DNA of 64,000 nucleotides from Patescibacteria group bacterium (GTDB lineage: Bacteria > Patescibacteriota > Minisyncoccia > UBA6257 > HR35), in contig JAUQQN010000002.1 in NCBI GenBank assembly GCA_030549845.1, positions 53,307 through 117,306 of the forward strand, read 5' to 3'. The position numbers were made by a program, and so were the translations under genes. This document shows positions 21,815 through 63,226 of this stretch, piece by piece; the stretch's first letter is position 1; each line of letters starts with the position of its first letter. The notes beneath the pieces are model-generated. The model ran no database searches, was not told where the DNA came from, and was given only the letters and a program-made list of their open reading frames with translations.

Positions 21815-21887
21815 TCGGGGTGGCCGGATTCGAACCGGCAATCTCGTGGTCCCAAACCACGCGCCTTAACCATTAGGCCACACCCCG
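21815..21887 (-). tRNA. tRNA-Pro (anticodon TGG)
   Basis: 73 nt. C1:G72 acceptor pair typical of bacterial tRNA-Pro. Anticodon loop TTTGGGA. T-loop TTCGAAT. Confidence 0.8.
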
Positions 21888-21892
21888 CTAAA

Positions 21893-21965
21893 TGGACCCA
21901 GAGGGACTCGAACCCTCGGCCTCCGCCATGCCATAGCGGCGCTCTACCAACTGAGCTATGGGCCC
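21893..21965 (-). tRNA. tRNA-Ala (anticodon GGC)
   Basis: 73 nt. Acceptor GGGCCCA/TGGGTCC with the G3:U70 Ala identity pair. Anticodon loop containing GGC. T-loop TTCGAGT. Confidence 0.8.
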
Positions 21966-21998
21966 TTAATAAAAATAATTATAACAAAAAATAAAAAA

Positions 21999-22073
21999 TG
22001 GTGGGCGGGCCGGGCCTTGAACCCGGATCTCTCTCACTTTTAGAGAGCGCCTTCCCCTTTAAGCCACCCGCCC
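21999..22073 (-). tRNA. tRNA-like gene with an atypical anticodon loop; isotype unresolved
   Basis: Perfect 7-bp GC acceptor stem (GGGCGGG/CCCGCCC), D-arm with GG, T-arm CCGGG-TTCAAGG-CCCGG, discriminator A and a genomically encoded CCA. The anticodon stem CTCTC/GAGAG encloses the loop TAAAAGT, with A at position 33 and an AAA/AAG-type anticodon. Confidence 0.55.
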
Positions 22074-22088
22074 ACCATAAAATAAAAA

Positions 22089-22112
22089 ATGGCCGGAGCG
22101 TGCCGGCCAGAG
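22089..22112 (-). terminator. GC hairpin plus T-tract (bidirectional-terminator-like) just upstream of the tRNA cluster
   Basis: GGCCGG-AGCGTG-CCGGCC flanked by T-tracts on both strands. Part of a larger dyad with 22153-22163. Confidence 0.4.
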
Positions 22113-22368
22113 TATTTTTTAAAGGATTAATTTTTATGGTCAATCAAATACCCTGGCCGGCACCTTTCCGACCAAAACAACCAAAACGAGATTTAATAAT
22201 AGATCTTTCTTTAAAAACTCAAACATTTTATACTTTTTCATTAACATTATATAAAAATTATTATAACATTTACATTTATAAACTTATATAAACTTATTAT
22301 ACAAAAATTTATAAAACTTAAAGTTCGTGAGTAATAAATTTATGCTATTGATATATAATAATTAACTT

Positions 22369-23910
22369 ATGGAAAGAGGGAAAGAGTTGCAACCAAAATT
22401 TCCAAAGCCGAGTGAATATTGGGATGAAATTCAACAAATTTTATCTTCAGCTAAACAAAGTCCTATATCTGGTGCAGCTGTTGAAGCGGTATTAATGAGG
22501 GGGTTACAGAGTTGGCGAAAGAATAAGATTGAAGAATCAAGTAGAAGAATAATTTCTGGAAATGGAAACTTCTTCTCAAATCCACTAATCTTCATTTCTA
22601 CCATACAAGCTCTTATAGCTGCTGAAAATGGGAAATTAAAAGAATTCCTTGATGCATTAAAAAAACATTGGATATATGAGGAGCATTTAAGAAGAGTAAG
22701 GGTAGGTTTTCCTCCTTATTTGAGGCCCATAGAAGAAGCAATAGAAACACAAAGATTCGGGGAGGAATATGAAAAGAAGGTGTTAGAAATTTTACAGATG
22801 TTAGGGTATTATGCAGTTGAAACTCCTAAAATGGATGATTATTATGGAACAGGAGACATTTATATCTATATTAAAACACAAGATGGACATTTGATATTAG
22901 CGATCGATGTTACAACTGTAAGTAAAGAAAATAAAGAAAGAGATTTAGAAATAATTCAATCTAAAATAAAAGCAAATCTTGGAAAAGATAGAAAAAATCT
23001 CACAGCAGCTATAAATCCAAATTCTTTTCTTGAAGCAGGTTATGACGACAAAGTACACAAACTAACGCTTATATTACTACCAGAAGATCAAGATATTTTA
23101 GATAAAGGTAGCGATGAAGAAAAGAAGAGACTTATAAAAAGAAAATTAGAAGAAGCAATTGAAAACTTTAAAAGATTGGCAGAAGAAGAAATTGTTAGTC
23201 ATTACTTAATGCACGCCTTAATAAATATAGAAGAGTTTGAAGCAAAAATAGAAGCATATCAAAAGTATTTAGAAGAAAATGACGAGTTTAGGGGCAAAAG
23301 TGGTTGGGAGAAATTAAAAACAATGGTTTTAGAAGCAGGTTTAGCAACTAAATCTGAAGTAAAAAGATTAGATAGAAAAAAATTAATAGAATTACTCTGC
23401 AACGCATATGCTAGGAATTTAATTAACGAGTATCTTCAAAACGTGGAGTCTCCTCCTAAAACTTTAGAAGATTTATACAAAATTTTATTGAATAATGTAA
23501 ATAAAAATTTTTTAATAGGATTGAAAATTTTAGAAAGAACAAAGCTTTTTGATCTTACAAACAAGGACGAATTTAAAAAACTAATTTCTGAAATATATAA
23601 ATATCCTGAGAGCTTGGAAGAAATACTTAAAGGAGTTTATTTAGAAACAACAATCTTTGGAGAAACTGAACCGGATGATGAAGTTTTAAAAACTTTATAC
23701 AATTTAGACAAAAATTGGAATAACCTAAGCAAAAATGAAAGGAAGGAAAAAATTTTTGAAGCTTTACAAAAACTCATTTTAAAAGATCCCGAAATAGGAA
23801 AAGCCCTTATCGAAGTAGTATACAGAAAACTTGTTAAACAAAGAGAAAATTTAATAAATTTCTGGAATGCAGTAAAATCTTATCTTGAAGTAAGTACTCC
23901 CTATTTTTAA
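22369..23910 (+). CDS. Orphan 513-aa hypothetical protein with a putative Mrr-like PD-(D/E)xK nuclease core and a long alpha-helical C-terminal domain
   Basis: EEYEKKVLEILQMLGYYAVETPKMDDYYGTGDIYIYIKTQDGHLILAIDVTTVSK resembles the Mrr_cat/restriction-endonuclease fold (FE..V..LL...GY.V......DGGIDI......VQCK). The rest is E/K-rich helical sequence. It is the only plus-strand gene in a minus-strand neighbourhood and is flanked by tRNA genes. Confidence 0.4.
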   Translation: MERGKELQPKFPKPSEYWDEIQQILSSAKQSPISGAAVEAVLMRGLQSWRKNKIEESSRRIISGNGNFFSNPLIFISTIQALIAAENGKLKEFLDALKKHWIYEEHLRRVRVGFPPYLRPIEEAIETQRFGEEYEKKVLEILQMLGYYAVETPKMDDYYGTGDIYIYIKTQDGHLILAIDVTTVSKENKERDLEIIQSKIKANLGKDRKNLTAAINPNSFLEAGYDDKVHKLTLILLPEDQDILDKGSDEEKKRLIKRKLEEAIENFKRLAEEEIVSHYLMHALINIEEFEAKIEAYQKYLEENDEFRGKSGWEKLKTMVLEAGLATKSEVKRLDRKKLIELLCNAYARNLINEYLQNVESPPKTLEDLYKILLNNVNKNFLIGLKILERTKLFDLTNKDEFKKLISEIYKYPESLEEILKGVYLETTIFGETEPDDEVLKTLYNLDKNWNNLSKNERKEKIFEALQKLILKDPEIGKALIEVVYRKLVKQRENLINFWNAVKSYLEVSTPYF

Positions 23911-23942
23911 CTTATCAATAAGATAGCTCTGCTTCGAATTTG

Positions 23943-24013
23943 CTGCGGGGCCTGGATTCGAACCAGGACTAACGGCTCCAAAGGCCGCTGTGCTACCGTT
24001 ACACCACCCCGCA
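23943..24013 (-). tRNA. tRNA-Gln (anticodon TTG)
   Basis: 71 nt. U1:A72 and G73 as in bacterial tRNA-Gln. Anticodon loop CTTTGGA. T-loop TTCGAAT. Confidence 0.75.
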
Positions 24014-24090: not shown

Positions 24091-24879
24091 TCAGGTATGG
24101 GTTTTCAATAAATATAAACCTCCATAGATTCCTGATTTTTCCTGAAGTTTGCTTTTAAAAATTTTTGTTTTAAAGGGTAAAGTTTTTAAATTACTAAAAT
24201 TTACTTTTAACTCTTCAAAGTCTAAGCTTTTGATTAATGAACCACCAATAATAATTGCCTCTACTGACCAAAAAATAGCAACATTAATTAAAAACCCAGC
24301 GAAAATTTTATTAATATAGGACCAAAATTTTTTATCTTTAATTTCTTCTGGCTTTTTACCAGTAATTTTTTCTATTGATTTTCCTCCTATTAATTTTTCA
24401 ACTTCTATAAAATTAGAATTTAATAAAAACAAACTATGGCCTGGTTCAAAGCCGAAAAAATTCTCTTCAACTTTTTTATTTACAATTTTTACCCCACCCA
24501 CTCCACTACTTAGAGTAACATAACCCAAAATATTAAATCTTTTACCAATGCCATAAACAGCCTCTCCTAAACCTGCAAGTTCTGCATCATTTTTTAAAAT
24601 AACATCGCAATTAAATAAATTTTTAAAATCTTTAACAATATTTTTATTATTAAAATTAGGAAGGTTAGGGGCTTTAATTATTTTTTCATTTCTTATCATC
24701 CCAGCAAAACCAATAACTATTCTATTGAATCTTGTTTCTTTCAAGTTGTTTTTAAGTACTTGCAAGAAATCATTATAATTCTTAGGAGTTTCGATAATAA
24801 AAAATTTATCAATTTTATTTAAGTTTTTACTAATACCTATTTTAGTCGTAGTGGCTCCTATATCTAATAAAAGGTGCAT
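24091..24879 (-). CDS. ROK/BadF-type sugar kinase (glucokinase-like ASKHA ATPase)
   Basis: N-terminal LLDIGATTTKIGI phosphate-1 motif. GFAGMIRNEKIIKAPNLPNF. C-terminal IIGGSLIKS...GIYGGLYLL. Confidence 0.55.
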   Translation of the reverse strand: MHLLLDIGATTTKIGISKNLNKIDKFFIIETPKNYNDFLQVLKNNLKETRFNRIVIGFAGMIRNEKIIKAPNLPNFNNKNIVKDFKNLFNCDVILKNDAELAGLGEAVYGIGKRFNILGYVTLSSGVGGVKIVNKKVEENFFGFEPGHSLFLLNSNFIEVEKLIGGKSIEKITGKKPEEIKDKKFWSYINKIFAGFLINVAIFWSVEAIIIGGSLIKSLDFEELKVNFSNLKTLPFKTKIFKSKLQEKSGIYGGLYLLKTHT

Positions 24880-26381
24880 TATTCAATTTTAGTTTTTTCC
24901 TTCGATCTTGCAAATAAATAATACCACATTGCTATATTTAACAAAATCAAAATTATAACTAAAATCCACGGTGTTGAAATAATACTAAATAATCCTCCAG
25001 CAAAAGCAGCAAGTGGAGCAAATATATTTTCCTTTTTACTTACTTCAATAGTAACTGGAAAATCTTTTTTGGTCCCATTTATACCTGCTGTAATTATCCC
25101 ATAATATTCACCTTCTTCTGCATCACAAGGTACATCAATAGTCCAATTAAATGAATTTATATCATTAGGTAAAACTTCTATAACTCTTGCTTTTGGCTTA
25201 AACCATTTTTTAATCTCCCCACTTATTGTAAAAGATACTTTTCTTTTTTTGCTATTGTTATTAATAATAGTAATATTTATATTATCTTTCTTGCATATAT
25301 ATGTCTTCAAATAATCATCTATAGATATATCCAAATAAGAATTTTGCATTTCTTTTGTAACCAAAGTAGCGGCCGGAGTTGTTGGCTTAGTTACTGGAAC
25401 TCTGACAGTTTGGGTTATTGTTTTTGTGATTGTCTTTGTAATAAATTGCGTTCTTCCTACACTAAGCACAAGTTCTTTTGAAGAAGTAGCACCCTTATCA
25501 TCTACAACTGTAAGCTTTATATTATAAGTCCCTGAACTAAGGGCCCTTGAAAAAGATGGATTTCTTGAAACAATTTCATTATTTATTGACCATTCATAAA
25601 GAATTATTCTACCATCAGGATCATAAGAGCCAGCTGAAGAGAAGGTTACAATTGTTCCTGGTTTAATTAAGGTTGGAGAATAAGTTATATTAGCAATAGG
25701 TTTTTGATTTTGAGATGTTATAGTTGTCTGTTGAATTTCACGGGAAATTACATTTACACTACAATTTGTGGCTCTTGAAATACCATCTGAATAAACTGTT
25801 AAATAAACATAATAAGTACCTGGAGTATAAAACGTTTTTTGGCAAATAGATGAATTTCCAACACAATCTCCAGACCAGGAATATGAATAATATCCTGTTC
25901 CCCCAGATACGTTAGAATAGAAAGTAACTAAACTTCCTACATAAGCTGGGTTGGGTGCTGAATAGCAAGAAACACTTAAATCAGATTGCTGGGTTCCACA
26001 AGTAGTTGTAAAAGATCTAATTTCCCCATAATTTATTCCGGCGGAGTTTTTTGCTACTGCTCTATAATAGTATGTTGTACAAGGATTTAAATTAAATATT
26101 GTATAACAAAATCTATAAGGAGTATAAGTAACATTCAGGGTTTGAACGGGCGTAGTATTAGTTAAAGCAGTGGTTCTTCCCCATTCAAACCAAACCTGAA
26201 TATTTTGATCCCCTCCTGTATCAGTTATTTCACCAACTAAAGTAGCTTGAGTATCAGTATAGGTTGATCTGCTTGGACAAGCTTGCGCATTTACATCGTA
26301 TAATCCTAAAAACAAAACAAACAATGCAACTAACATTATTTTTAATTTGCTTTTTATAAATCTTTCTTTTTTTATTTGCAT
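24879..26381 (-). CDS. Secreted, C-terminally membrane-anchored protein with an FN3-like N-terminal domain and a PKD-like domain
   Basis: Signal peptide. Domain CPS...ATLVGEITDTGGDQNIQVWFEWG...PYRFC...CTTYYYRAVAKNSAGINYGEIRSFTT. PKD-like segment YDPDGRIILYEWSINN...YNIKLTVVDDKGATSS. C-terminal TM helix. Confidence 0.6.
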   Translation of the reverse strand: MQIKKERFIKSKLKIMLVALFVLFLGLYDVNAQACPSRSTYTDTQATLVGEITDTGGDQNIQVWFEWGRTTALTNTTPVQTLNVTYTPYRFCYTIFNLNPCTTYYYRAVAKNSAGINYGEIRSFTTTCGTQQSDLSVSCYSAPNPAYVGSLVTFYSNVSGGTGYYSYSWSGDCVGNSSICQKTFYTPGTYYVYLTVYSDGISRATNCSVNVISREIQQTTITSQNQKPIANITYSPTLIKPGTIVTFSSAGSYDPDGRIILYEWSINNEIVSRNPSFSRALSSGTYNIKLTVVDDKGATSSKELVLSVGRTQFITKTITKTITQTVRVPVTKPTTPAATLVTKEMQNSYLDISIDDYLKTYICKKDNINITIINNNSKKRKVSFTISGEIKKWFKPKARVIEVLPNDINSFNWTIDVPCDAEEGEYYGIITAGINGTKKDFPVTIEVSKKENIFAPLAAFAGGLFSIISTPWILVIILILLNIAMWYYLFARSKEKTKIE

Positions 26382-26746
26382 TTTGTCTTTATTGATCTAA
26401 TTTCCCCATAATTTATTCCGGCGGAGTTTTTTGCTACTGCTCTATAATAGTATGTTGTACATTTTTTTAATTTATTCACATTTATACAATATATTCCTGG
26501 TTTGCTTAATTTTATTGATTTTGTCTTAAACATTAAACTTGATGAAGAAGATCCGTACTCAAACCAACCTTCTACATATTTGTCATTTCCTAAACTATCA
26601 ACTTTTCCTACAAAAATTATATTATTTTTATTAGCAATAGTTCTCTGGGGACATTTTATTGAAATAGTATTCACCGCAAAAACCCTAGAAGCTAAAAATG
26701 TAAAGAATATTAAAATACTTATTAAAAGGATAAATAATTTCTTCAT
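26372..26746 (-). CDS. Secreted FN3-like paralog (124 aa)
   Basis: Signal peptide plus the same domain, ending ...CTTYYYRAVAKNSAGINYGEIRSIKTKCK. Shares a 68-bp identical DNA segment with the upstream paralog. Confidence 0.55.
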   Translation of the reverse strand: MKKLFILLISILIFFTFLASRVFAVNTISIKCPQRTIANKNNIIFVGKVDSLGNDKYVEGWFEYGSSSSSLMFKTKSIKLSKPGIYCINVNKLKKCTTYYYRAVAKNSAGINYGEIRSIKTKCK

Positions 26747-28285: not shown

Positions 28286-29074
28286 TTAAACTAAAAACTT
28301 AATTAGTTTGTTACTCAATAGGGGTAAATATTTCCTTCCTATATTCTCCCCTATTTTAATTTTTTCTTGTGCGTTTAGAAAATCATACCATTTAACTTCA
28401 TATGGCAGATTTACATTTATAACAAAATCCGCGTTTTTAACATTAAATTTAGCAAGGTTATATTCTAATATTTTTAAAGAATAATCTGCTACTTCTAAAA
28501 TATTGTAGTGACCCTTGAGAGAAAAATTATAATTACTTAAATTTACAGCAATCACAAAATCCGCTCCCATTTTTCTTACTACATCAACAGGAACAGGCAA
28601 TGAAATTCCACCATCTACTAGCATTTTATTATTTATTTTCACTGGAGCAAAAATAAAAGGAATTGAAATACTTGCTCTAATAGCAGTAGATAATTTTCCT
28701 TTATCTATTACATAATAATCTCCAGAAGATAAATCAGTTGCAATTGCTCTAAAGGGAATTAAGCAATTTTCTATTTTTTTATCACCTAAATAATACTCTA
28801 AAAAATTTTTTATCTTTTCCCCACTTATTAAGCCAGATTTAAAATCAGGATCAAAAAATAAAGAAAATAAATCTTTCCAATCTGTATCAATAGCTATTTC
28901 TTCAATTTTATCTATAGAAAATCCTGCACAATAAAAACCTCCTATTAATGCGCCTATGCTTGATCCTGCAATAAAATTAATAGGAATTTTATTTTCTATT
29001 AAAACTTTTAGAATACCTATATGAATTAACCCCCTAGCTCCCCCAGCACCTAATGCTAATCCTATTTTTATCAT
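28286..29074 (-). CDS. Patatin-like phospholipase
   Basis: Oxyanion GxGxxG (LGAGGARG), nucleophile elbow AGSSIG, and catalytic-Asp motif DGG. Confidence 0.85.
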   Translation of the reverse strand: MIKIGLALGAGGARGLIHIGILKVLIENKIPINFIAGSSIGALIGGFYCAGFSIDKIEEIAIDTDWKDLFSLFFDPDFKSGLISGEKIKNFLEYYLGDKKIENCLIPFRAIATDLSSGDYYVIDKGKLSTAIRASISIPFIFAPVKINNKMLVDGGISLPVPVDVVRKMGADFVIAVNLSNYNFSLKGHYNILEVADYSLKILEYNLAKFNVKNADFVINVNLPYEVKWYDFLNAQEKIKIGENIGRKYLPLLSNKLIKFLV

Positions 29075-63154: not shown

Positions 63155-63226
63155 TGCCTGGGGAGGGAATCGAACCCCCGACGCCGGGCTCTTCAGGCCC
63201 GCGCTCTACCACTGAGCTACCCAGGC
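63155..63226 (-). tRNA. tRNA-Phe (anticodon GAA)
   Basis: 72 nt. Acceptor GCCTGGG/CCCAGGC with A73. Anticodon loop CTGAAGA. T-loop TTCGATT. Confidence 0.8.

What the first reader, a model, noticed from the sequence alone, without database searches (positions are those of the whole stretch)
22369..23910. tRNA-flanked orphan gene with an Mrr-like PD-(D/E)xK nuclease core fused to a long helical domain
This is the only plus-strand gene in about 20 kb of minus-strand housekeeping DNA. It lies between a Pro-Ala-atypical tRNA cluster on one side and tRNA-Gln on the other, a classic integration hotspot. Residues about 125-210 (EEYEKKVLEILQMLGYYAVETPKMDDYYGTGDIYIYIKTQDGHLILAIDVTTVSK) look like the Mrr_cat restriction-endonuclease fold. 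The remaining roughly 300 aa form an E/K-rich alpha-helical domain with no recognisable motif. That architecture suggests a single-protein defence or abortive-infection nuclease, or a type IV restriction relative, rather than housekeeping. It uses the host-style SD-less start, so it is not a very recent import.
Basis: partly seen in the sequence, partly recalled or inferred. Interest (0 to 1): 0.6.

Follow-up and report, generated by a model that had tools for sequence, protein, structure and literature searches.

The report
Hypervariable orphan nuclease-fold gene between tRNAs
A real 513-residue gene of a tiny, candidate-phyla-bacteria-only family has a predicted restriction-endonuclease-like core between fast-changing helical domains, and its alleles differ far more between strains than the genes around it, which suggests a dispensable "genetic conflict" gene, although it belongs to no known defence or Mrr family.

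Summary
The ORF at 22369-23910(+) is real. No Pfam, NCBIfam, PADLOC, PHROGs or PDB sequence profile matches it. An exhaustive phmmer search of 1.84 billion representative proteins finds only four other lineages; the single taxonomically labelled one is a Minisyncoccia MAG.

The gene is not Mrr_cat and not in a defence island. It has no integrase or att repeat. In the other lineages it keeps one fixed syntenic position.

It is nevertheless a sharp divergence island. In one strain pair the flanks are 91-100% identical and the gene 34-79%. In the window lineage the gene's dS is 0.066 against 0-0.02 in flanking genes. One natural variant has lost the whole core, and assemblies break on both sides of the locus.

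Best reading (about 0.4): an accessory, conflict-type nuclease with variable helical sensing or targeting domains. This is a new family of a known fold, and its function is unproven.

The parts
22369..23910 (+). Gene X: 513-aa orphan protein (stop codon included)
   Evidence: ORF list. The identical protein is called on independent contigs. Homologs are P0002 and P0004-P0006. Omega is about 0.21 against the L010 allele.
22369..22704 (+). N-terminal helical domain (aa 1-112), low model confidence, most variable part
   Evidence: Helices H14-111 at pLDDT about 50-77. 9 of the 13 amino-acid differences from the L005/P0001 allele fall here. It has the highest dN between L007 and L009 (0.41).
22714..23106 (+). 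Predicted restriction-endonuclease-like (PD-(D/E)xK) core, aa 116-246: helix 120-144, strands 148-151, 164-170 and 173-183, helix 189-206, strand 229-236
22771..22773 (+). E135, invariant Glu in core helix 1 (motif G-x3-E); candidate metal ligand
   Evidence: Invariant column in A1. Position in helix 120-144. The catalytic role is inferred.
22855..22857 (+). D163 of the invariant G-T-G-D-I-Y motif at the N-terminus of strand 2; candidate 'PD' aspartate
   Evidence: Invariant columns G160-Y165. Strand 164-170.
22906..22914 (+). D180-V181-T182 in strand 3: the '(D/E)xK' position with Lys replaced (T here, M in the other four members)
   Evidence: Alignment A1 shows 'ILAIDV(T/M)'. Strand 173-183.
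22963..22965 (+). K199, invariant Lys in core helix 2; candidate migrated catalytic lysine
   Evidence: Invariant in A1 and A2. Helix 189-206. A precedent for Lys migration to the second core helix is Pa4535/1y0k in PMC3424549.
22996..23055 (+). Conserved loop motif N210-x2-A213-x2-N216-P217-x2-F220-L221...V229 (family consensus G-N-Y-Q-A-S-I-N-P-x-T-F-L) between helix 2 and strand 4
   Evidence: Invariant columns. pLDDT is below 50 for residues 206-216. Function is unknown; a substrate-binding loop is an inference.
23107..23907 (+). C-terminal E/K-rich helical domain (aa 247-513). About 140 aa of it are an expansion absent from the other members. The terminal helix carries the invariant F498-W499.
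   Evidence: Alignment A1. All-helical prediction. No meaningful structural match.
22349..22357 (+). Extended -10-like sequence TGATATATA, 12 nt before the ATG; no Shine-Dalgarno sequence (short-leader or leaderless mRNA inferred)
   Evidence: Sequence read directly. It is not reported by the strict consensus scan. This is inference only.
21999..22073 (-). Accessory, hypervariable tRNA cassette (anticodon AAA; anticodon loop UAAAAGU here) forming the left edge of the variable segment
   Evidence: ARAGORN and Rfam. It is 32% diverged from the L010 allele, with at least 8 compensatory pair changes, while the flanks differ by 0.4%. It is precisely absent in L018.
21985..22001 (.). Left copy of the 17-nt direct repeat CA(A/T)AAAATAAAAAATGG that brackets the tRNA cassette
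   Evidence: Repeat family D15. The L018 deletion junction lies in it.
22076..22092 (.). Right copy of the 17-nt direct repeat
   Evidence: Repeat family D15.
22090..22175 (-). Conserved GC-rich long hairpin followed on the minus strand by a U-tract; unknown RNA or terminator between gene X and the tRNA cassette
   Evidence: MFE -48.8 kcal/mol, z = -6.1. Terminator-like calls. No Rfam family. Almost unchanged in L010. One breakpoint of the L015 deletion lies in its loop.
23942..24013 (-). tRNA-Gln(TTG), right boundary of the variable segment
   Evidence: Contigs from six samples end at window 23942-23986.
21815..21965 (-). tRNA-Pro(TGG) and tRNA-Ala(GGC), invariant left boundary
   Evidence: No differences from L010. 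Six contigs start at 21949-21997.

Best explanation
Gene X encodes a cytoplasmic protein of a very small, lineage-restricted family; the only labelled member comes from a Minisyncoccia (Patescibacteria) MAG. A conserved restriction-endonuclease-like (PD-(D/E)xK) core sits between an N-terminal and a C-terminal helical domain, and both helical domains change quickly in sequence and length.

I propose that it is a metal-dependent nuclease. E135 (helix 1), D163 (start of strand 2) and D180 (strand 3) would bind the metal. The missing strand-3 lysine would be supplied by the invariant K199 of the second core helix. The variable helical domains would provide oligomerisation and target or trigger recognition.

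The gene behaves as a dispensable 'conflict' locus, meaning defence-like or addiction-like, and is kept as old, divergent alleles that are exchanged by recombination.

Shown here: the gene is real; the fold prediction and its structural matches; the invariant residues; the absence of any known-family membership; the divergence-island and deletion-variant pattern. Inferred: catalytic activity, the role of K199, the substrate, and the defence role.
For: Fold:
- Alpha-beta-beta-beta-alpha-beta topology in two models.
- The Foldseek top hits are also PD-(D/E)xK: R2 endonuclease, FokI, XisH, MspJI, BamHI, PaqCI, SwaI.

Active-site candidates:
- E122, Q128, G131, E135, D156, D157, G160-Y165, D180 and K199 are invariant across about 30%-identical members.
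- Migration of the lysine to the second core helix is documented for this superfamily (PMC3424549).

Rarity:
- 5 hits among 1.84 billion representatives.
- 1 locus among 185,579 species genomes.
- No hits in viral contigs.

Fast evolution confined to the gene:
- L004 against L009, L007 and L001: neighbours are 65-88% identical at the protein level (the ten with a recognised family or housekeeping role 67-88%; one downstream membrane ORF 56%), X 35-47%.
- L007 against L009: left flank 91-95% nucleotide identity, right flank 99-100%, X 34-79%.
- dN is 0.29 for X against 0.029 for the BpsA_C-like neighbour.
- Window against L010: dS is 0.066 in X against 0.004, 0 and 0.023 in three flanking genes, with omega 0.21. 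The allele is therefore older than its surroundings but still under purifying selection.

Dispensability and structural polymorphism:
- L015 lacks window 22135-23089, which is the promoter plus codons 1-240.
- An insert of about 90 aa between strand 3 and helix 2 is present in three members and absent from two.
- Contigs break at both flanking tRNAs in many samples, and the locus assembles as separate contigs of 1.5-2 kb.
Against: - No match to any defence model. There is no partner gene such as a methyltransferase, ATPase or antitoxin, and no defence island.
- In four other genomes the gene sits in one conserved position among housekeeping genes. This is more typical of a vertically inherited host gene.
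- The canonical lysine is absent, and in four of five members it is a methionine.
- Omega values of 0.2-0.56 show purifying to relaxed selection, not demonstrated positive selection.
Confidence: 0.4

Rival explanations
1. The protein is a catalytically dead nuclease fold that the lineage uses as a nucleic-acid-binding or scaffolding protein, for example in RNA or DNA handling. It evolves fast because most of it is low-constraint E/K-rich helix.
For: - The strand-3 lysine is lost (T or M) in all members.
- Four genomes share a conserved syntenic position next to translation and envelope genes.
- Omega is below 1 everywhere.
- There is no defence context.
Against: - Six acidic residues (E122, E135, D156, D157, D163, D180) plus K199 are invariant at about 30% overall identity. 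This is the pattern of a retained metal site.
- Relaxed constraint does not explain the synonymous divergence, which is 15-fold or more above the left flank in the window lineage and 2-fold above the neighbour in L007/L009. It also does not explain the 99-100% identical right flank next to a gene only 34-79% identical.
- The core is deleted outright in a natural variant.
Confidence: 0.3
2. The gene is a selfish free-standing endonuclease cassette, homing-type or addiction-type, lodged in a tRNA cluster. Its cleavage and repair events would drive gene conversion and hence the high divergence of the adjacent sequence, including the neighbouring tRNA cassette.
For: - There are presence/partial-absence variants.
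- The elevated-divergence tract runs from the tRNA cassette to tRNA-Gln.
- The tRNA cassette is bracketed by 17-nt direct repeats and is missing in L018.
Against: - The other four family members are not near tRNAs and are stably syntenic.
- No empty-site allele lacking the whole gene was found.
- Alleles as divergent as 42% amino-acid identity at one locus are not what homing predicts.
- There are no viral or mobile-element hits.
Confidence: 0.1
3. The protein is a tRNA-directed (anticodon-type) nuclease that is functionally coupled to the adjacent accessory tRNA(AAA). Under this reading the variable anticodon loop of that tRNA would make it a resistant back-up or a decoy.
For: - In the window the gene is adjacent to a hypervariable but structurally maintained tRNA. 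Its anticodon loops are UUAAAGU, UAAAAGU and UAGAAGU in three strains.
- There are fold matches to tRNA-splicing endonuclease subunit Sen15.
Against: - The tRNA association is not conserved in the other four loci.
- Sen15 is a non-catalytic subunit, and tRNA-splicing endonucleases use a different active site (PMC3424549).
- The argument is purely circumstantial.
Confidence: 0.05
4. The protein is a type IV (Mrr-like), modification-dependent restriction endonuclease.
For: It shares the general PD-(D/E)xK fold. MspJI, McrC and AF1548 appear among the weak structural hits.
Against: - No Mrr_cat or Mrr_N Pfam match for any member at E<=10.
- No (D/E/Q)xK lysine.
- No recognisable domain that binds modified DNA.
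- No GTPase or ATPase partner.
Confidence: 0.03

Closest known systems
Minimal Hjc/UPF0102(YraN)/XisH-type PD-(D/E)xK domains (e.g. 1gef, 1ob8, 2wcw, 3fov, 2okf)
   Same: - The same alpha-beta-beta-beta-alpha-beta core of about 120 residues.
- Sequence pattern G-x3-E in helix 1, G-x-G-D-h-h at strand 2, and h-h-h-(D/E)-h in strand 3.
   Different: - No detectable sequence homology.
- The lysine two residues after the strand-3 acid is T or M.
- There are extra invariant motifs: T-P-x2-D-D, and N-x2-A-x2-N-P-x2-F-L.
- The core is embedded between helical domains of about 110 and 270 residues.
PD-(D/E)xK variants with a migrated catalytic lysine (Pa4535, PDB 1y0k; motif PD-EXX-K; Steczkiewicz et al. 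2012, PMC3424549)
   Same: An acidic residue is retained in strand 3, the lysine is absent there, and a conserved lysine is available in the second core helix (K199 here).
   Different: The equivalence of K199 is inferred from secondary-structure position only. It was not checked in 3D, and there is no sequence similarity.
Non-catalytic or RNA-associated versions of the fold: RAP domain (9g6k, 9gek), Prp8 endonuclease-like domain (9l5r, 6zym, 3zef), Sen15 (8iss)
   Different: They are eukaryotic or organellar proteins with no sequence relationship to gene X. Gene X keeps an invariant acidic triad that suggests a live metal site.
Single-polypeptide PD-(D/E)xK defence or restriction nucleases (Mrr/type IV, MspJI, FokI-type cleavage domains, Upx 9wuf, Cap4 effector domain)
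   Same: A nuclease-fold effector is fused to other domains in one protein. Distribution is patchy and evolution fast. Structural hits are weak.
   Different: - No HMM membership.
- No recognisable DNA-binding, sensor or NTPase domain.
- No defence-island context.
- A conserved syntenic position in relatives.

Membership tests
PD-(D/E)xK (restriction endonuclease-like) superfamily | Four-stranded mixed sheet flanked by helices, with alpha-beta-beta-beta-alpha-beta order | tested here: met
   Both AlphaFold models give H120-144, E148-151, E164-170, E173-183, H189-206, E229-236. This is a prediction from a 5-sequence alignment, with core pLDDT about 72-91.
PD-(D/E)xK (restriction endonuclease-like) superfamily | Structural similarity to solved members | tested here: met
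PD-(D/E)xK (restriction endonuclease-like) superfamily | Conserved acidic residues: Glu in helix 1, Asp at the start of strand 2, Asp or Glu in strand 3 | tested here: met
   E135, D163 and D180 are invariant in all five members and fall on the predicted elements. Their spatial convergence was not checked.
PD-(D/E)xK (restriction endonuclease-like) superfamily | Lysine two residues after the strand-3 acidic residue | tested here: not met
   The motif is D180-V-T182 here and D-(V/I)-M in the others. A migrated lysine (K199, helix 2) is possible but unproven.
PD-(D/E)xK (restriction endonuclease-like) superfamily | Metal-dependent phosphodiesterase activity | not testable with these tools
   This needs biochemistry.
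Mrr / type IV restriction (Pfam Mrr_cat PF04471 with Mrr_N) | Significant match to the Mrr_cat profile | tested here: not met
   No Pfam family related to nucleases at E<=10 for any of the five members.
Mrr / type IV restriction (Pfam Mrr_cat PF04471 with Mrr_N) | N-terminal winged-helix or other domain that reads modified DNA | tested here: not met
   The N-terminal 112 residues are predicted all-helical, with no Pfam or structural match.
Known anti-phage defence systems (PADLOC-DB) | Match to a defence-protein model | tested here: not met
   No families for any of the five members at E<=1.
Known anti-phage defence systems (PADLOC-DB) | Location among other defence genes or mobile elements | tested here: not met
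   The window neighbours are IF-1, ribosomal proteins, tRNAs, a ROK kinase and PKD proteins. The relatives have ThrRS, RimP, LemA, MurG, L21, a BpsA_C-like gene and a cation ATPase.
tRNA-integrated genomic island | Integrase gene and a direct repeat of the tRNA 3' end at the far border | tested here: not met
   No integrase or transposase in the neighbourhood. There are only AT-rich chance repeats and no copy of the tRNA-Gln end.
tRNA-integrated genomic island | Presence/absence polymorphism between close strains | tested here: inconclusive
   Found so far: a partial deletion (L015), a tRNA-cassette deletion (L018), divergent alleles, and assembly breaks at both tRNAs. No clean empty site was found.

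The most novel reading that the evidence does not exclude
The segment bounded by tRNA-Ala and tRNA-Gln would be a small 'conflict locus' of an ultra-small episymbiotic bacterium. Gene X would be a previously unrecognised single-gene immune nuclease specific to Minisyncoccia: a conserved PD-(D/E)xK effector with a relocated lysine, and hypervariable helical sensor domains maintained as ancient alleles by frequency-dependent selection. The adjacent accessory tRNA(AAA) cassette, with its strain-specific anticodon loops and fully compensated stems, would be a back-up tRNA that escapes anticodon nucleases.
Probability: 0.1. Interest if true: 0.7.

Novelty: new member of a known kind. Interest (0 to 1): 0.4.

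Why it matters
Candidate-phyla-radiation bacteria have genomes of about 1 Mb, few recognised defence systems and many orphan genes. This study defines a new, very small family of the PD-(D/E)xK superfamily, with an atypical active-site signature (E...D...D-x-[T/M]...K) and a clear population-genetic signal: an allelic divergence island, a deletion variant and recombination boundaries at the flanking tRNAs.

If the protein proves to be an active nuclease used in defence or addiction, it would add a lineage-specific immune or selfish module to organisms where such systems are almost uncharted. If it is inactive, it is another example of the nuclease fold reused for binding. In both cases the claim here is limited to fold assignment and evolutionary behaviour. 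The function is not shown.

Tried and rejected
- Sequence profiles. Pfam, NCBIfam, PADLOC, PHROGs and PDB searches, run with phmmer and with profiles of the full-length protein, the core, and the 75-residue core, gave only sub-threshold chance hits. These were DUF7167, CelTOS, RNase RNM at E 0.05 against a cutoff of 375 bits, Utp30, and the designed proteins TRACeR-I and RBL7.
- A third word-indexed search used a trimmed core alignment (A4). It returned nothing, not even the known members, so it is uninformative. The profile search with A1 recovered only P0001 and P0002.
- The Foldseek afdb50 library was unavailable.
- An att-site search around the tRNAs found only AT-rich chance repeats.
- Scans of viral contigs for the protein and for the tRNA cassette were negative.
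- The 97-aa plus-strand ORF at 21998-22291, which gene finders call on Logan contigs, is antisense to the tRNA cassette and the hairpin. I rejected it as spurious.
- I considered whether the 2-nt insertion in an A-run in L005 is a real frameshift. The same allele is intact on two other contigs (P0001), so it is probably a sequencing or assembly error or a rare variant.
- The L015 tRNA looks like a recombinant of two alleles. A chimeric assembly cannot be fully excluded for that contig, although a junction with about 10 bp of microhomology is not what k-mer assemblers produce.
Full report
**1. What is in the sequence**

- The ORF at 22369-23910(+) exists, starts at ATG and encodes 513 aa. The protein is rich in L, E, K and I and has one cysteine.
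- Apart from spurious antisense ORFs, it is the only plus-strand gene between about 11.5 and 29.8 kb.
- To its left, on the minus strand, lie IF-1, L36, S13, S11, S4, RpoA, L17 and S16. Next come tRNA-Pro(TGG), tRNA-Ala(GGC) and an atypical tRNA at 21999-22073. ARAGORN calls the atypical tRNA Phe(AAA), and Rfam gives it only 43.9 bits against 65-72 for its neighbours.
- To its right lie tRNA-Gln(TTG) at 23942-24013(-), a ROK kinase and PKD-domain surface proteins.
- Composition is native: GC 0.30 and GC3 0.20, against 0.15-0.24 GC3 in neighbouring genes.
- The lack of a Shine-Dalgarno sequence is genome-wide: 1 of 46 long ORFs has GGAG/GAGG upstream.
- The gene is not a chance ORF. It has homologs with invariant motifs, and alleles differ with omega of about 0.2.

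**2. Family**

- Nothing in Pfam, NCBIfam, PADLOC, PHROGs or the PDB matches by sequence, for this protein or for its relatives.
- The word-indexed search of 5.8 billion clusters found only a 98%-identical allele (P0001) and P0002.
- An exhaustive phmmer search of 1.84 billion representatives found five proteins: a fragment of the same gene, plus P0002, P0004, P0005 and P0006.
- One locus was found among 185,579 species genomes, in a Minisyncoccia MAG (taxonomy). Five metagenome loci were found and none in viral contigs.
- The members are 27-29% identical to the query over the full length and share a conserved core:
  - P-x-E122-x-A-x3-Q128-x2-G131-x3-E135-x3-L-x-I-L
  - T152-P-x2-D156-D157-x2-G-T-G-D163-I-Y165
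  - I176-L-x-I-D180
  - a variable insert of 0 to about 90 residues
  - K199
  - N210-x2-A-x2-N216-P217-x2-F-L...V229
  - a helix with K259...I264...F267-K268
  - a C-terminal F-W
- The N-terminal helical region and the C-terminal helical region vary in sequence and length. The window protein carries an extra stretch of about 140 aa.

**3. Fold**

- AlphaFold2 on the 5-sequence alignment gave mean pLDDT 65.5 for the full length and 69.9 for residues 116-290.
- Both models predict helix 120-144, strands 148-151, 164-170 and 173-183, helix 189-206 and strand 229-236. Everything else is helical. This is the order of elements in the restriction-endonuclease-like fold.
- Foldseek independently ranks the R2 retrotransposon endonuclease (E 1.7e-3), FokI, XisH, MspJI, BamHI, PaqCI and SwaI at the top.
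- The full-length model adds nothing for the helical domains.
- The PD-(D/E)xK assignment is therefore supported, at modest scores and from a shallow alignment.
- The sequence register fits: E135 lies in helix 1, D163 at the start of strand 2 and D180 in strand 3.
- The residue two positions after D180 is T (window) or M (the other four), so the canonical lysine is absent.
- The superfamily review documents active-site migration, including lysine moved to the second core helix in Pa4535/1y0k (PMC3424549). K199 is invariant and lies in that helix. This is a lead only, because I could not access the coordinates to test it.

**4. Context in relatives**

- P0002 (L001), P0006 (L004), P0004 (L006/L007) and P0005 (L008/L009) all sit in the same place: ThrRS, RimP, LemA, MurG, a small membrane protein, L21, a BpsA_C-like gene on the opposite strand, gene X, then a cation ATPase on the opposite strand.
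- No tRNA is adjacent, and there are no defence or mobile-element genes.
- The window shares none of this synteny within 64 kb. Only a 32%-identical ATPase lies 30 kb away.
- So the gene is not in defence islands, and in that clade it is vertically inherited.

**5. Evolutionary behaviour**

This is the most informative result.

- Between L004 and the other three lineages, ten of the eleven neighbouring genes compared are 65-88% identical at the protein level (those with a recognised family or housekeeping role 67-88%) and one membrane ORF is 56%, while X is 35-47% identical.
- L007 and L009 are two co-occurring strains. Their left flank is 91-95% identical at the nucleotide level and their right flank is 99-100% identical. 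X is 34-79% identical with indels, and the drop coincides with the ORF borders.
- For that pair, dN is 0.29 in X against 0.029 in the adjacent BpsA_C-like gene. dS is 0.66 against 0.33.
- The same pattern holds in the window lineage. Against L010, the flanking genes differ by 0.4%, X by about 2.3%, and the atypical tRNA by 32%.
- There, dS of X is 0.066 against 0.004 (M16 peptidase), 0 (RpoA) and 0.023 (ROK), with omega 0.21.
- The alleles are therefore older than the genome around them and are still under purifying selection. Relaxed constraint alone does not explain this.

Structural variants also exist.

- L015 lacks window 22135-23089, which is half of the upstream hairpin, the promoter region and codons 1-240. 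The junction has about 10 bp of microhomology.
- L005 carries a 2-nt insertion in an A-run. It is probably an error, because the same allele is intact elsewhere.
- P0004 lacks the insert of about 90 aa that its close relative P0005 has.
- Contigs from many samples end at 21949-21997 on the left and at 23942-23986 on the right. The locus itself assembles as separate contigs of 1.5-2 kb (L003, L005, L027, L028). This is what co-existing haplotypes produce.
- There is no integrase and no att-like repeat.

**6. Interpretation**

- 'Mrr-like' and 'type IV' fail their tests.
- The defence reading is neither confirmed nor excluded.
  - For it: rarity, a divergence island in two lineages at two different loci, dispensability, and a conserved effector-like core with variable flanking domains.
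  - Against it: no known-family membership, no partner genes, no defence island, stable synteny in one clade, and the missing canonical lysine.
- I commit to an accessory conflict-type nuclease. E135, D163 and D180 would bind the metal, K199 would act as a relocated lysine, and the helical domains would serve for recognition or oligomerisation. My confidence is about 0.4.
- The main rival is an inactive nuclease fold used for nucleic-acid binding (0.3).
- Minor rivals are a selfish endonuclease cassette (0.1), a tRNA-directed nuclease linked to the neighbouring tRNA (0.05) and an Mrr-type enzyme (0.03).

**7. Novelty and score**

- This is a new, very small family within a very large and well-known superfamily. 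It has an atypical motif and a notable population signature.
- No function has been demonstrated.
- I rate it a new member of a known kind, with interest 0.4.

Noticed in passing
window 21999-22073 (-); L010 3922-3994; L015 1109-1183; absent in L018: The 'atypical tRNA' is an accessory, hypervariable tRNA cassette. Window and L010 differ at 24 of 75 positions, while the flanks differ by 0.4%. At least 8 of the changes are fully compensatory pair changes, in the acceptor, D, anticodon and T stems. The anticodon loops are UAAAAGU (window, A at position 33; 43.9 bits), UUAAAGU (L010; 61.2 bits, anticodon AAA) and UAGAAGU (L015; 36.3 bits, apparently a recombinant with a mismatched acceptor stem). 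An A34 Phe-type anticodon is unusual in bacteria, and a normal tRNA-Phe(GAA) lies at 63155-63226.
   Followed up: partly
window 21985-22001 and 22076-22092; L018 about 222-238: 17-nt direct repeats CA(A/T)AAAATAAAAAATGG bracket the tRNA cassette. Contig L018 (ENA ERZ27245617) lacks exactly the segment between them (window 22002-22075). The tRNA is therefore an insertion/deletion polymorphism.
   Followed up: partly
window 22090-22175 (-): A GC-rich hairpin of about 85 nt in an AT-rich spacer (MFE -48.8 kcal/mol, z -6.1). On the minus strand it is followed by AUUUUUUAUUUU and then directly by the tRNA cassette. It has no Rfam family, only miRNA-like noise. It is almost identical in L010. One end of the L015 deletion lies in its loop. 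It could be a terminator or a small structured RNA.
   Followed up: partly
window 24879-26381 (-) and 26372-26746 (-): Two adjacent predicted secreted or surface proteins share the motif C-T-T-Y-Y-Y-R-A-V-A-K-N-S-A-G-I-N-Y-G-E-I-R-S. The larger one has a PKD domain and a C-terminal transmembrane helix. This looks like a tandem paralogous surface-protein pair, and it is 1.3% diverged from L010, more than the ribosomal flank.
   Followed up: no
L009 2598-5065 against L007 6590-9058: The cation-ATPase gene next to the homolog is a single 822-aa ORF in L007 and L004 but is split into 294-aa and 521-aa ORFs in L009. The split may be a frameshift, a pseudogene or an assembly error. The surrounding DNA is otherwise 99-100% identical.
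   Followed up: no
L007 4770-5483 (-), L004 8638-9348 (-), L001 5201-5914 (-), L009 490-1200 (-): In all four relatives the homolog is transcribed divergently from a BpsA_C-like gene (PF01861, branched-chain polyamine synthase C-terminal domain), with about 30-50 bp between the two. No such gene lies within the 64-kb window. Whether the pairing is functional is unknown.
   Followed up: no
window 28286-29074 (-): A stand-alone patatin-like phospholipase gene lies about 4 kb from gene X. Such domains serve as effectors in some defence systems, but no partner genes were seen here.
   Followed up: no
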